DNA of 64,000 bases from the human T2T-CHM13v2.0 reference genome, Homo sapiens, in NCBI RefSeq assembly GCF_009914755.1, contig NC_060941.1; one strand, 5' to 3'. The notes under the pieces are model-generated. The model searched no databases. It saw only the letters and a program-made list of their open reading frames with translations, and was not told where the DNA came from. Shown piece after piece: positions 3,243 through 57,788 of this stretch (positions are counted from its first letter, which is position 1; each line of letters starts with the position of its first letter). The translations under genes were made by a program, and so were the position numbers.

Positions 3243-3646
3243 CTATTGAAGAAAGAAAGGCCTATTAGCCCAGGAAGTGGGGGAGGAGTATGGGGTGGGG
3301 AGATTCCATTACTAGGTGCTCCCAGACCAAGTACTGAAGCAAAAAATCTCGGCTCCTCGAGACTGGAAGCCATCTTGCCCTCTCTGGATGCAAGAATGGA
3401 GAGTCAAACACTGTCACTGCATCACTTGAGCCCAGGAGTTCAAGACCAGCCTGGCCAACATGGCAAAACCCCACCTCTACTAAAAATACAAAAAATTATC
3501 TGGGTGTGGTGGGGTGCGCCTGTAATCCCAGCTACTCAAGAGGCTGAGGGGGAGAATAACCTGAGCCCTGGAAGTCGAGGCTGCAGTGAGCCGTGATCAT
3601 GCCACTGCACTTGAGCCTGGGCAACAGGAGACCCTGTCAAAAAAAA

Positions 3647-3678
3647 AAGAAAGAAAGAAAAGAAAAGAAAGAAAGAAA

Positions 3679-3746
<68 letters not shown>

Positions 3747-3747
3747 A
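3647..3747 (+). repeat. (GAAA)n tetranucleotide repeat derived from the tail of a 5'-truncated AluJ (3420-3650)
   Basis: Read directly. Confidence 0.95.
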
Positions 3748-4170
3748 AATAAAGGAACATGGAGAGTTGAAAACTACTGAAGAATCCAGCCTGTGCTCAA
3801 TGATCCCCGTAGAAGGTTATCTGAGGTGAATGATTTCCCTGTTCTGGCTTCCCTTTGCCAGAAAGCAAGCTTCTGGCTTTCCTCCAAACACCAAGCTCTG
3901 AATGTTCAGGGAATATAAACTAATCCTTAACATTAGCCAGAGCCAAGCTTAATTAGTATATGGTATATTAAGCATGCATTTTTTTAAGTACACACTGGAT
4001 TTCAAAACCACATTTGTGATGTCATATCCTTCTTTCTGTTCCTGTCAGGATTAATAAGTAGGAGCTGACTCCAACACAAACTCAAATGCCTTCAAGGGCC
4101 TAGAATGGGAGAAGTGCCTGCAGTAACCGGGACAGGACAAGACTACCCTAAAGCATTCAATTCTAATTTA

Positions 4171-7285: not shown

Positions 7286-7880
<595 letters not shown>

Positions 7881-50822: not shown

Positions 50823-51311
<489 letters not shown>

Positions 51312-54496: not shown

Positions 54497-54583
54497 AGGA
54501 AGGACCAGAAGAAGCTCGAGCAGACAGTGGAGCAAATGAAGCAGAATGAAACTACTGCAATGAAGAAACAACAGGAATTAATG
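54497..54583 (+). CDS. CALCOCO2: CALCOCO2 exon 9 (RKDQKKLEQTVEQMKQNETTAMKKQQELM), 87 nt, followed by a GC donor
   Basis: ttgtgcag|AGG acceptor; the recalled protein continues QQELM-DENFD, placing the donor at ATG|GCATGT. Confidence 0.9.
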
Positions 54584-55249
54584 GCATGTCTGTCTTTGGA
54601 TGGTTATGTGGGAGGGAGCCTATAGGGATGTAGAAGAAAAGGATATGGGCCTATTTTCCGGTTGATGGACAGGATAAATAAGAGAGTGTTCACCTCTAGA
54701 TGTTTTGCTTTCTAGCCAAAAGGACAGAGAATCTGCCATTTATAAAATGTTTAGAAGTGGGCATTTCTAATATGTGATAAGTAATAAAGGAATATTGCAA
54801 GTTAAACTTCATGACAAGATGTAGTTAACTAGATCCTTGGACTAGGGCTCACACAGAATAACCCCTACCCTCTTCTTACAGAGTTACAATAGGGGCAGAC
54901 AAATGAATGGTTATAAAGGGCTCTACGACAGGAAAATATACCACCCAAAGCAAATCTTGTTATAATTAATATATTAGCAATTATCATCATTATCAATTAT
55001 GTAGGAATGAAAGGCTAATTGACTAATAATTTCCTGTAATATATTGTTGAAAAAGAGTCCCCATGGCGTTGACAGGTGCCTGGAAGCCCCGTTTACTTAG
55101 TTGATCCAAGGACATGAGTAATCCTGATGTCTGAGGGATATCCAGTCATCTGATTATAATTCACATCATATATGCATCATCCAGTCAACCATTGAGTACC
55201 TACTGTATCTAAGATACTGTATGCTTTAGCATGATATAGGAAAGAGTAG

Positions 55250-56306: not shown

Positions 56307-56433
56307 AATTTTCTTAGTTTTCATGGAATATTTTTCAAGACCTAGGGGCTCCCCACCTGGCTGATAGCAATCCTAATTCCTCATACATCCTAAAAGGCCG
56401 CTAAATATGAGTACTGTGTATCTTATGCTTCAG

Positions 56434-56598
56434 GAGCCTAGGAACAAGAAAGCGGCACTAACTGTGGAGGAGCAGTTAGCACAAGAGGTGGAACGCCTTA
56501 AGGCAAAGGTAGAGGCCAGGAAAGCCTATTTCTTAGGGAAGTACAAAGAGTGTCAATGACTTCACAAACAGATCAGCCAACTCGGGGCGGCTGCACTG
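56434..56598 (+). pseudogene. Pseudo-exon (decayed ancestral coiled-coil exon) in CALCOCO2 intron 9: EPRNKKAALTVEEQLAQEVERLKAKVEARKAYFLGKYKECQ*LHKQISQLGAAAL
   Basis: Acceptor cttatgcttcag|G, donor CTG|GTAGGT, 165 nt = 55 codons phase 0/0, single TGA at 56557-56559; similarity to a recalled TAX1BP1 segment. Confidence 0.75.
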
Positions 56599-57692
56599 GT
56601 AGGTGACAGAGATAAGGGGGCCCAGGAAAGCAAGAGGTGCAAAGGTTAGTGGTTCTTAGACCAAGTCCAGAAAATGGTACACCCTTGTTAAGGTGAGAAA
56701 GTTATCTTTGCACTAAAAAGAGGGATGTAGTGTATGGCCAGAAACTAGCATGGGGGTCCCTGGAAATACTGGCCCCAACTTAGCCACAGGTCTCAGGGAA
56801 GGTTTTTGTAACTATCAAGCAGGTTTCTGTGCAGACTCAGAGAGCCCTTTCTTATTTCTGCCTTTTGAGGAAGTGAAGCAGGACTAGAAGAGCCATCAGG
56901 AGCCAACGGGGATGGGAAGCAAGGAGCCTGCAGTCAGCATTGTCACTGGGTAGCCCCCTCTGGCATTACTACCTCAGGGTCGGCTAGACATGCACAGCAG
57001 TTTGGGCACCAGCATTCAAATAAAAAATCTTGGATGAAAAACCACAACTAGTAGGCTTAGCTTAAGTGTGTTTGTGAGGTATGCACATGTGTATGTATGC
57101 AGGTAGAAGATGGGAAGCTCTGAAGCATGAAACCAGTTAGGTCAACCCATCACACTGGGTTGCTTATGGCCCCAGTCTGAGCTCCTTGTATCCTTGGACA
57201 AATGCCTTCCTGTGTTCCCTCTTCCTTCATGTAACTTGAGCCGAGATGCCTATTCTCACACTGTAGGAAGGAATCACACCAACCCAAACCTAAGTGCTTC
57301 AGGCTTCGCTGAGTGAGACGTTTATTCAAAACAAAGATTATTGTTTTCATGGTTAGGTGGGATTCAACAAGGTTTCATTTATCCCTAATTCTGATAAGTC
57401 AGTCTTGAGATTTTCCCCAAGGTTGCTTTTTCCCTCCTTGGTCACTTATACCCTCAGCTAAACCAAAAAAAAAAAAAAAAAAATTGGCATCTTGATGCCA
57501 GCTCAGGCCTTCAGGTGTCTTTTTAAGTCACTTTAATTTAGCACCCTGCCCATAGTACCATTTCTTCCTCCCAGTTGCGTTCTCCTCCATCTCAGTCTCC
57601 CCGCTTTGCAATGCCAGATTCTCTACAATTTCTCACCTTGTACCCAGACTGCAATATGTGATCCTAATCCTAATTTTTTTTATTGTTGACAG

Positions 57693-57788
57693 GATGAAAA
57701 CTTTGACCTGTCAAAAAGACTGAGTGAGAACGAAATTATATGTAATGCTCTGCAGAGACAGAAAGAGAGATTGGAAGGAGAAAATGAT
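57693..57788 (+). CDS. CALCOCO2: CALCOCO2 exon 10 (DENFDLSKRLSENEIICNALQRQKERLEGEND), 96 nt
   Basis: ttgttgacag|GAT acceptor with CTAAT branch candidates upstream, GAT|GTAAGT donor. Confidence 0.95.

What the first reader, a model, noticed from the sequence alone, without database searches (positions are those of the whole stretch)
56434..56598. Fossil TAX1BP1-like coiled-coil exon hidden in CALCOCO2 intron 9 (possible poison exon)
Seen: intact acceptor (cttatgcttcag|GAG) and donor (CTG|GTAGGT), 165 nt, phase 0/0 exactly fitting between exons 9 and 10. It translates to EPRNKKAALTVEEQLAQEVERLKAKVEARKAYFLGKYKECQ*LHKQISQLGAAAL with heptad character and a single TGA (56557-56559). It is below the ORF-track cutoff and not part of the 446-aa protein. 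From recall, the paralogue TAX1BP1 contains TLEHELRREVEDLKLRLQMAADHYKEKFKECQRLQKQINKL, which aligns without gaps at 18/41 identity; the stop sits on the Arg, consistent with a CGA>TGA CpG mutation. Inference: NDP52 ancestrally carried this interaction module (in TAX1BP1 the region overlaps what I recall as the NBR1-binding segment) and lost it in the lineage leading to this genome. The retained splice sites mean inclusion now gives a PTC at codon 346, a potential AS-NMD switch on an autophagy receptor.
Basis: partly seen in the sequence, partly recalled or inferred. Interest (0 to 1): 0.85.

Follow-up and report, generated by a model that had tools for sequence, protein, structure and literature searches.

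The report
Decayed TAX1BP1-like alternative exon in CALCOCO2
Intron 9 of the human autophagy-receptor gene CALCOCO2 (NDP52) holds a broken copy of an optional exon that monkeys, a lemur, rabbit, a rodent and cattle still keep open, and that resembles the piece of the sister protein TAX1BP1 which binds NBR1.

Summary
Window 56434-56598 is a 165-nt, phase 0/0 stretch with good splice sites and a single TGA. It fits between CALCOCO2 exons 9 and 10.

It is a true homologue of one TAX1BP1 exon. That exon encodes aa 422-470, the core of the NBR1-binding N domain, and holds L442 and Y449. The two exons are reciprocal best hits (E about 1e-8), and 0 of 3000 shuffles reach the observed score.

Twelve of 125 retrieved placental CALCOCO2 proteins carry this exon, always directly after exon 9. 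They come from macaques, Rhinopithecus, capuchins, marmoset, mouse lemur, rabbit, kangaroo rat, cattle and goat. It is open in all 12, with Arg in 11 of them where human has TGA.

It is an alternative exon, which I call 9a. Eighty-eight of the 125 proteins join exon 9 directly to exon 10.

It carries a TAG in human.

Human differs from macaque at 11 of 82 codons in 9a plus 9b, and macaque equals capuchin at all 11. The decay therefore happened on the ape/human lineage.

The poison-exon idea and NBR1 binding remain untested.

The parts
56434..56598 (+). Exon 9a: 165-nt, phase 0/0 decayed alternative exon of CALCOCO2, homologous to the TAX1BP1 exon that encodes aa 422-470 (N-domain core)
   Evidence: The orthologous open exon sits directly after exon 9 in 12 of 125 placental CALCOCO2 proteins.
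56557..56559 (+). TGA, codon 42 of exon 9a (codon 346 if the exon is included)
   Evidence: This position is Arg in 11 of 12 orthologues, Gly in marmoset and Arg in TAX1BP1.
56414..56433 (+). Pyrimidine-rich tract and AG acceptor of exon 9a
   Evidence: The score of 3.9 is higher than 11 of 12 annotated CALCOCO2 acceptors.
56599..56604 (+). Donor gtaggt of exon 9a
   Evidence: The score of 4.6 is higher than 6 of 11 scored annotated donors.
56870..56949 (+). Exon 9b: 80-nt second alternative exon (phase 0 to 2, shifts the frame into exon 10). It is open in macaque, Rhinopithecus, Sapajus, mouse lemur, rabbit, kangaroo rat and Bos, and broken in human.
   Evidence: The human splice sites are weak (acceptor 1.3, donor -2.4).
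56885..56887 (+). TAG in exon 9b, where most orthologues have Gln (rabbit has Arg)
54497..54583 (+). Constitutive exon 9. It ends in phase 0 at codon 304 and is followed by a GC (not GT) donor.
57693..57788 (+). Constitutive exon 10, which starts in phase 0. Read one base out of frame after 9b, it stops after 9 codons in human.

Best explanation
Intron 9 of CALCOCO2 holds two alternative exons, 9a (165 nt) and 9b (80 nt). Both are conserved and open in non-ape placental mammals. Exon 9a is the NDP52 counterpart of the TAX1BP1 exon encoding aa 422-470. That segment is the helical, heptad-patterned core of the N domain, through which TAX1BP1 docks on the LIR1 region of NBR1. The exon is therefore inherited from the common ancestor of the two paralogues. 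In other mammals it is spliced in after exon 9, mostly together with 9b. The resulting isoform ends soon after this module and lacks the galectin-8-binding and zinc-finger end. On the lineage from the catarrhine ancestor to human, constraint on both exons was lost. Eleven amino-acid-changing substitutions accumulated, including one nonsense codon in each exon. In the human reference the pair is a decaying relic. The splice sites of 9a are still good, so occasional inclusion is possible. Inclusion would give a stop at codon 346, and hence an NMD substrate or a 345-aa truncated protein. Shown: homology, position, open orthologues, asymmetric decay. Inferred: ancestral origin, timing, and what inclusion does today.
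For: Homology: tblastn of the exon (X at the stop) against the TAX1BP1 and CALCOCO1 genes gives E 2.7e-8. The reverse search of the TAX1BP1 exon against the whole window gives E 3.9e-8, or 6e-7 with default statistics, and the next hit is 0.23 on low-complexity sequence. No shuffle of 3000 reaches the observed score. When 588 reconstructed TAX1BP1 residues were searched against the whole CALCOCO2 locus, only three SKICH-exon regions and this exon scored below E 1e-3. No functional NDP52 coiled-coil exon did.

Position: the order is collinear in both genes: SKICH exons, then this exon, then the GNPY-containing exon, then the zinc-finger exon. Both exons are phase 0/0.

TAX1BP1 numbering: eight phase-consistent exons sum to 421 codons before this exon. 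Residues 114, 442 and 449 are then A, L and Y, as the papers state. The published L442A and Y449A primers match this exon's DNA apart from the mutated codon.

Orthologues: 12 of 125 proteins carry the exon right after exon 9, open in all 12. Over 15 species pairs, mean identity is 88.0% for 9a, against 83.0% for constitutive coiled-coil exons 5-9 and 80.3% for exons 8-9.

Decay in human: 11 of 82 codons differ from macaque, and macaque equals Sapajus at all 11 (11 changes against 0, binomial p 0.001). The canonical protein differs at 23 of 446 residues (Fisher p 0.011). Three of the human changes (R>Q, E>G, R>stop) fall where macaque and TAX1BP1 agree: identity to TAX1BP1 is 21/41 in monkeys and 18/41 in human.

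Helix: heptad a/d positions are enriched in hydrophobic residues (0.50 against 0.15). The AlphaFold2 model of the macaque isoform has a helix at 309-369 after a break at 305-308, but overall confidence is low (mean pLDDT 62).
Against: The exon-bearing proteins are automatic gene models (Gnomon 'X' isoforms, UniRef). I did not see their RNA support. The protein search only admitted proteins of 152-483 aa, so full-length in-frame isoforms of about 500 aa were invisible. Only 120 of 546 hits were listed. No ape protein with the exon was seen, so the stops cannot be placed within the ape lineage. No marsupial, bird, reptile or fish protein was seen, so the ancestral state rests on paralogy alone. 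No CALCOCO1 counterpart was found; the best hit (E 0.23) falls on the homologue of the neighbouring TAX1BP1 exon. Eleven changes is somewhat more than I estimate for neutral drift since the split from Old World monkeys (about 5.5-6.5 expected, Poisson p 0.03-0.07; the expected rates are from general knowledge). That excess could reflect hypermutable CpG codons, or something other than simple relaxation. The well-preserved 9a splice sites are not explained by pure decay. The sequence is one haplotype.
Confidence: 0.82

Rival explanations
1. The exon is a working poison exon in humans. Regulated inclusion introduces the stop at codon 346 and lowers NDP52 output through nonsense-mediated decay. 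The splice sites are kept by selection for that role.
For: The splice sites of 9a score as well as or better than most constitutive CALCOCO2 sites. The stop lies 300 nt upstream of the last exon junction if 9a is spliced on to exons 10-13, so the 50-55 nt rule is met. Exon 9 has a GC donor, a class I recall as often linked to alternative splicing. Even in other mammals, most annotated 9a isoforms end prematurely through the frame-shifting exon 9b.
Against: I saw no transcript evidence of any kind. RefSeq annotates no such transcript. Full-text searches for CALCOCO2 with 'poison exon', or with 'nonsense-mediated decay' plus 'exon inclusion', found only one unrelated study; supplements were not viewable. 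The amino-acid sequence is conserved across orders more strongly than neighbouring constitutive exons. That points to a protein-level role in other species rather than a purely regulatory one. On the human lineage the exon changed fast (11 changes against 0), which is unlike a conserved regulatory element. The human 9b donor is weak (-2.4).
Confidence: 0.12
2. Humans still make a shortened protein from 9a-containing transcripts: 345 aa, made of SKICH, the coiled coil and the first 41 residues of the module. This would be a dominant or specialised isoform, comparable to the naturally truncated mouse NDP52.
For: The TGA lies only 39 nt upstream of the 9a 3' junction. A transcript that ends soon after 9a or 9b would therefore escape the 50-55 nt rule. 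Models of this kind exist in monkeys, ending by read-through after 9a or 9b (378 and 386 aa). The first 41 codons keep the positions that align with TAX1BP1 L442 and Y449. Truncated NDP52 is tolerated in mouse (PMC4599966, passages read).
Against: There is no transcript or protein evidence. Five further missense changes fall in the first 41 codons or close to them, two of them at sites where macaque and TAX1BP1 agree. Exon 9b is broken as well.
Confidence: 0.06
3. The two stop codons are private to, or rare outside, the CHM13 haplotype, and most people carry an open exon.
For: Only one haplotype was examined. I had no variant data.
Against: Two independent nonsense codons and nine missense changes sit in 245 nt relative to macaque. 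That fits long-term decay rather than a single recent variant. RefSeq annotates no human isoform with the exon.
Confidence: 0.03
4. The resemblance to TAX1BP1 is only chance similarity between coiled-coil-like sequences, and the splice sites are accidental.
For: Coiled-coil composition inflates similarity scores. A whole-genome six-frame search with the 41-aa piece returned only itself.
Against: No shuffle of 3000 reaches the score. The two exons are reciprocal best hits. Real NDP52 coiled-coil windows score at most 33, against 93. Twelve orthologous proteins use exactly these boundaries.
Confidence: 0.01

Closest known systems
TAX1BP1 N domain (aa 420-506), the NBR1-binding half of coiled-coil 2 (Ohnstad et al. 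2020, PMC7737610; Bauer et al. 2024, PMC11611905)
   Same: Exon 9a aligns without gaps to aa 426-466: 18/41 identical in human and 21/41 in monkeys. Both exons are phase 0/0, both are collinear in their genes, and both are helical with a heptad pattern.
   Different: Leu442 and Tyr449, which are essential for NBR1 binding in TAX1BP1, are Val and Phe in human 9a and in the ten well-conserved orthologues. The exon is 55 or 53 codons long instead of 49. It is alternative rather than constitutive. It is broken in human. Human NDP52 was reported absent from the NBR1-TAX1BP1-p62 complex (PMC7737610).
Lineage-specific death of an exon (a unitary pseudo-exon) in an otherwise intact gene
   Same: The orthologous exon is open in outgroups. 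The focal lineage carries nonsense mutations and excess amino-acid change. The exon is absent from the annotated human transcripts.
   Different: The lost piece is recognisably the counterpart of an experimentally defined interaction domain of a paralogue. Two adjacent alternative exons decayed together.
Poison exons coupled to NMD (for example SCN1A 20N, or the EZH2 poison exon mentioned in 10.1101/2023.06.25.546449)
   Same: Inclusion would place a premature stop well upstream of the last exon junction. The frame-shifting exon 9b does the same in other mammals.
   Different: I saw no evidence of inclusion or NMD sensitivity. Conservation is at the protein level in other species and is lost in human.
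Naturally truncated mouse NDP52, which lacks the galectin-8- and ubiquitin-binding end (Tumbarello et al. 2015, PMC4599966)
   Same: The 9a+9b isoforms of monkeys, rabbit, kangaroo rat and cattle also end before the C-terminal binding domains.
   Different: I did not see the mouse protein. The hamster model I did see (P0006, 276 aa) ends in an unrelated tail, not in 9a.

Membership tests
TAX1BP1 N-domain module (NBR1-binding coiled-coil segment) | Significant sequence homology to TAX1BP1 aa 420-506 | tested here: met
   E 2.7e-8 and 3.9e-8 in the two directions. No shuffle of 3000 reaches the score. Monkey exon against the TAX1BP1 exon gives E 5.9e-10 in the 125-protein set.
TAX1BP1 N-domain module (NBR1-binding coiled-coil segment) | Same place in the gene: collinear order and same intron phases | tested here: met
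   Both exons are phase 0/0. Both lie after the SKICH and first coiled-coil exons and before the GNPY and zinc-finger exons. One-to-one homology of the directly flanking coiled-coil exons could not be shown (E above 0.01).
TAX1BP1 N-domain module (NBR1-binding coiled-coil segment) | Leu442 and Tyr449, shown to be essential for NBR1 binding | tested here: not met
   The aligned residues are Val and Phe in human and in the ten well-conserved orthologues. These are conservative replacements. The published tests used Ala.
TAX1BP1 N-domain module (NBR1-binding coiled-coil segment) | Binds the LIR1 region of NBR1 | not testable with these tools
   The two-protein predictor is off. This needs a pulldown with a natural 9a-bearing isoform.
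Poison exon (AS-NMD) | Inclusion places a stop more than 50-55 nt upstream of the last exon junction | tested here: met
   The distance is 300 nt for the 9a-10-11-12-13 path. It is only 39 nt to the exon's own 3' junction.
Poison exon (AS-NMD) | The exon is actually spliced into transcripts that rise when NMD is blocked | not testable with these tools
   Reads are not available. There is no RefSeq transcript. No paper was found. Supplements are closed.
Poison exon (AS-NMD) | Sequence conservation consistent with a regulatory role in the focal species | tested here: not met
   There are 11 changes on the human lineage against 0 on the macaque lineage.
Lineage-specific dead exon | Open, used orthologous exon in outgroup species | tested here: met
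   12 of 125 proteins, from 12 species in 4 orders, carry it, always directly after exon 9. These are automatic gene models.
Lineage-specific dead exon | Disabling mutations and relaxed constraint in the focal lineage | tested here: met
   A TGA in 9a, a TAG in 9b, and 11 of 82 codons changed against 23 of 446 in the canonical protein.

The most novel reading that the evidence does not exclude
Non-ape mammals make an NDP52 isoform whose end is a working N-domain-like module. That module docks NDP52 on NBR1/p62 condensates, or on another LIR-type partner, without the ubiquitin- and galectin-8-binding end. Apes lost this isoform, leaving TAX1BP1 as the only CALCOCO protein coupled to NBR1. This would explain why human NDP52 is absent from the NBR1 complex. 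It would also mean that monkey, rabbit and cattle cells differ from human cells in how autophagy receptors are wired together.
Probability: 0.2. Interest if true: 0.7.

Novelty: new member of a known kind. Interest (0 to 1): 0.5.

Why it matters
NDP52 and TAX1BP1 are treated as close functional relatives, yet only TAX1BP1 joins the NBR1-p62 aggrephagy complex. This finding shows that the NDP52 gene still holds the counterpart of the exact TAX1BP1 exon that mediates that link. Many mammals keep it as a strongly conserved optional exon, and the human copy is broken. That yields a concrete test: does a macaque or bovine 9a-bearing NDP52 isoform bind NBR1? It is also a caution for extrapolating between human cells and animal models of selective autophagy. 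In four full-text searches naming NDP52 or CALCOCO2 together with TAX1BP1, the N domain or poison/NMD exons, I found no paper describing this homology or the human loss. The exon itself is already present in automatic annotations of other species.

Tried and rejected
Searches that gave nothing useful:
- A whole-genome six-frame search with the 41-aa piece found only itself. It is too insensitive for a 41-aa match at 44% identity, so I fetched the paralogue genes and searched them locally instead.
- PDB sequence searches with the human piece and with the TAX1BP1 exon gave only unrelated helical proteins. No solved structure covers this TAX1BP1 segment.
- Pfam scans of single exons gave nothing specific.
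- The Atlas search with the 41-aa piece gave no usable hit.
- The protein word search with the 60-aa open frame around the exon (region 20-60) found no candidate. Its length window was 33-105 aa.
- No processed copy of CALCOCO2 exists that could have recorded an older transcript structure. The exon 2 search hit only the three paralogues, and the gene table lists no pseudogene.
- No CALCOCO1 counterpart of the exon was found.
- No further fossil TAX1BP1-like exon was found elsewhere in the CALCOCO2 locus.

Gene modelling: my unconstrained exon-chaining model for TAX1BP1 over-predicted small exons (41 exons). It also mis-built the 3' half. I kept only the eight high-scoring upstream exons, whose sum (421 codons) and residues 114, 442 and 449 match the literature.

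Literature: three searches were badly designed and uninformative. Papers seen only as search listings are not used as evidence. Supplementary tables of RNA-seq or NMD studies may list CALCOCO2 junctions; I could not see them and did not ask for them.

One script error was corrected. An alignment-based junction count misfiled one protein and was replaced by the motif-based count.

Full report
1. What is in the sequence.
Window 56434-56598 is 165 nt. It is flanked by cttatgcttcag on the 5' side and gtaggt on the 3' side. It translates into 55 codons with one stop, TGA at 56557-56559. In the RefSeq select transcript NM_005831.5, exon 9 (54497-54583) ends in phase 0 after codon 304. Exon 10 (57693-57788) begins in phase 0. 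The stretch would therefore fit in frame, and the stop would be codon 346. It is not repeat-masked and is single-copy in the genome. No competing ORF lies on either strand.

I scored splice sites with a crude weight matrix whose weights I recalled rather than took from a curated source.
- The acceptor scores 3.9, higher than 11 of 12 annotated CALCOCO2 acceptors.
- The donor scores 4.6, higher than 6 of 11 scored annotated donors.
- Among all AG and GT dinucleotides of intron 9, they fall in the top 1.7% of 237 and the top 1.3% of 153.

2. Homology to TAX1BP1.
I fetched the TAX1BP1 and CALCOCO1 genes from the same genome.
- With X at the stop, the exon matches one place in TAX1BP1 without gaps. 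There are 18 of 41 identities and 29 positives, E 2.7e-8 in a 110-kb search space.
- The first 41-aa piece alone gives E 2e-5.
- The match lies inside a TAX1BP1 exon of 147 nt, also phase 0/0.
- In the reverse direction, that TAX1BP1 exon finds the candidate as by far the best hit in the whole 64-kb window. E is 3.9e-8, or 6e-7 with default composition statistics. The next hit is 0.23 on low-complexity sequence.
- The ungapped score of 93 was reached by 0 of 3000 shuffles (maximum 48). Real NDP52 coiled-coil windows reach at most 33.
- I searched 588 reconstructed TAX1BP1 residues against the full CALCOCO2 locus. Only three SKICH-exon regions and this exon scored below E 1e-3. None of the functional NDP52 coiled-coil exons did.
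- Gene order is collinear. In both genes the exon lies after the SKICH and first coiled-coil exons, and before the exon holding the GNPY motif and the zinc-finger exon.

3. What the TAX1BP1 exon is.
An exon-chaining script over-predicted exons. Its eight high-scoring, phase-consistent exons upstream sum to exactly 421 codons. In that reconstruction, residues 114, 442 and 449 are A, L and Y. These are the residues named in the literature:
- A114 in PMC7737610 (passages read);
- L442 and Y449 in bioRxiv 10.1101/2024.05.17.594671 (passages and section 8 read), and in its published form PMC11611905 (passages read).

The mutagenesis primers printed in PMC11611905 match the genomic exon sequence apart from the mutated codon. 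The exon therefore encodes aa 422-470.

Ohnstad et al. define aa 420-506 as the N domain required for NBR1 binding. They report that NDP52 is absent from the NBR1-TAX1BP1-p62 complex. Bauer et al. modelled aa 430-468 with the LIR1 region of NBR1 and found L442 and Y449 essential. In the CALCOCO2 exon the aligned residues are Val and Phe.

4. Orthologues.
The protein word search admits only proteins of 0.55-1.75 times the query length, so single exons cannot reach full-length proteins. A first search around the exon was blank.

I then used a natural 163-aa stop-free frame that starts with exon 5, scored on residues 1-42. It returned six CALCOCO2 fragments. An alignment of the two longest returned 546 hits among 869 candidates. 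The best 120 were listed, all placental CALCOCO2 proteins of 152-483 aa.

A local search of all 125 stored proteins found the exon in 12:
- Macaca thibetana, M. nemestrina and M. fascicularis;
- Rhinopithecus;
- Cebus, Sapajus and Callithrix;
- Microcebus;
- Oryctolagus;
- Dipodomys merriami;
- Bos javanicus and Capra hircus.

In all 12 it starts directly after exon 9 and is open. Where human has TGA, 11 have Arg and marmoset has Gly.

A motif-based classification of the 125 proteins gave the following:
- 12 with the exon after exon 9;
- 88 with exon 10 directly after exon 9;
- 11 other, of which 8 read through the exon 9 donor and 3 skip exon 10;
- 14 without a recognisable end of exon 9.

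The usual protein is 446-450 aa in every order listed. The exon is therefore alternative in placentals. I call it 9a.

In 8 of the 12 proteins, 9a is followed by a further 27 residues. After these comes either a stop or exon 10 read out of frame. This gives products of 384-409 aa. One further protein (Cebus X3, 378 aa) reads through the 9a donor into the intron. Only the goat and marmoset models join 9a in frame to exon 10.

The extra residues map to window 56870-56949. This is an 80-nt exon, 9b, with phase 0 to 2 and weak splice sites in human (acceptor 1.3, donor -2.4). The human copy has a TAG at 56885-56887 where most orthologues have Gln.

6. Constraint elsewhere, decay here.
I compared six species in 15 pairs (macaque, Sapajus, mouse lemur, rabbit, kangaroo rat, Bos). 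Mean identities were:
- 90.8% for the N-terminal part up to exon 4;
- 83.0% for coiled-coil exons 5-9;
- 80.3% for exons 8-9;
- 88.0% for 9a;
- 80.5% for 9b.

So 9a is conserved more strongly than the constitutive exons next to it.

Human differs from macaque at 7 of 55 codons in 9a: codons 17, 29, 32, 35, 42, 48 and 51. It differs at 4 of 27 codons in 9b: codons 6, 9, 13 and 24. Macaque is identical to Sapajus at all 11 sites. By parsimony, all 11 changes lie on the lineage to human after the split from Old World monkeys. That is 11 changes against 0 (binomial p 0.001). The canonical protein differs at 23 of 446 residues (Fisher p 0.011).

Three human changes fall where macaque and TAX1BP1 agree. 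Identity to TAX1BP1 is 21/41 in monkeys and 18/41 in human.

From general knowledge of primate substitution rates, I expect about 5.5-6.5 amino-acid-changing substitutions in 245 neutral bases over that time. The observed 11 is at or a little above this (Poisson p 0.03-0.07). This suggests that constraint was lost early in ape evolution. I saw no ape sequence with the exon, so this is inference.

Marmoset 9a is much more diverged than capuchin 9a and has a 3-codon deletion. This hints at a separate relaxation in that lineage.

7. Structure.
The heptad a/d positions are enriched in hydrophobic residues: 0.50 against 0.15 in human and 0.57 against 0.11 in TAX1BP1. I ran an AlphaFold2 model of the 386-aa macaque isoform from an 11-sequence alignment. 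It is of low overall confidence (mean pLDDT 62, pTM 0.38). It shows a helix at 309-369, separated from the exon 9 helix by a break at 305-308. Block pLDDT across 9a ranges from 54 to 86. This is only weak support for a helical module.

8. What inclusion would do in human.
The TGA is 39 nt upstream of the 9a 3' junction. It is 300 nt upstream of the last junction if 9a is spliced on to exons 10-13. By the 50-55 nt rule (established knowledge), such a transcript should be an NMD target. A transcript ending soon after 9a or 9b might escape and give a 345-aa protein.

I could not test whether the exon is included at all. RefSeq has no such transcript and reads are not available. Full-text searches found nothing relevant. 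Supplements were not viewable.

9. Verdict.
The homology claim, the Arg-to-stop placement and the loss on the human lineage are supported. The exon is better described as one of two conserved alternative exons that decayed together on the ape/human lineage. The AS-NMD switch and NBR1 binding remain open, and the Leu/Tyr pair is not conserved.

The kind of event, lineage-specific death of an alternative exon, is known. The exon itself is in automatic annotations of other species. [quoted passage not shown]

Background: the three CALCOCO paralogues arose by duplication at the base of vertebrates, and NDP52 is truncated in mouse and lost in Xenopus (PMC4599966, passages read). The review PMC9582228 (passages read) summarises the NBR1-TAX1BP1 link.

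Noticed in passing
window 54584-54589: Constitutive exon 9 of CALCOCO2 is followed by a GC donor (ATG|gcatgt), not GT. Eight of the 125 retrieved database proteins, mostly 'hypothetical protein' models, read through this donor into the intron.
   Followed up: partly
P0078 (Callithrix jacchus isoform X2), residues 305-356: Marmoset exon 9a is far more diverged than that of the capuchins. It has many substitutions, a 3-codon deletion, and Gly at the Arg/stop position, yet it is still open and joined in frame to exon 10. This may be an independent relaxation.
   Followed up: no
window 50823-51311: The frame of exon 5 stays open for 163 codons into intron 5, partly through Alu-like sequence. This is a chance open frame. 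I used it only to widen the length window of the protein search.
   Followed up: yes
L007:4995-5141 (TAX1BP1) and window 56434-56598: The TAX1BP1 exon is exactly 49 codons (seven heptads). Exon 9a is 55 codons in primates and 53 in mouse lemur, rabbit, kangaroo rat and bovids. Inclusion of 9a would therefore shift the heptad register by one or three residues.
   Followed up: no
window 3600-3770 (TTLL6 intron, + strand frames): A purine-rich low-complexity stretch translates to runs of Lys, Glu and Arg. It gave the only other weak hits to coiled-coil queries.
   Followed up: no
P0006 (Phodopus roborovskii, 276 aa) and P0005 (Thomomys bottae, 254 aa): These rodent CALCOCO2 models are truncated in different ways. 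The hamster model ends in an unrelated tail after about residue 211. The gopher model ends by read-through of the exon 9 donor. Neither ends in exon 9a.
   Followed up: no
L012-L013 (CALCOCO1 gene), minus strand around 7300-7420: CALCOCO1 keeps a clear counterpart of the TAX1BP1 exon just before the N-domain exon (a shared RDRT-type motif). No counterpart of the N-domain exon itself was detected.
   Followed up: partly
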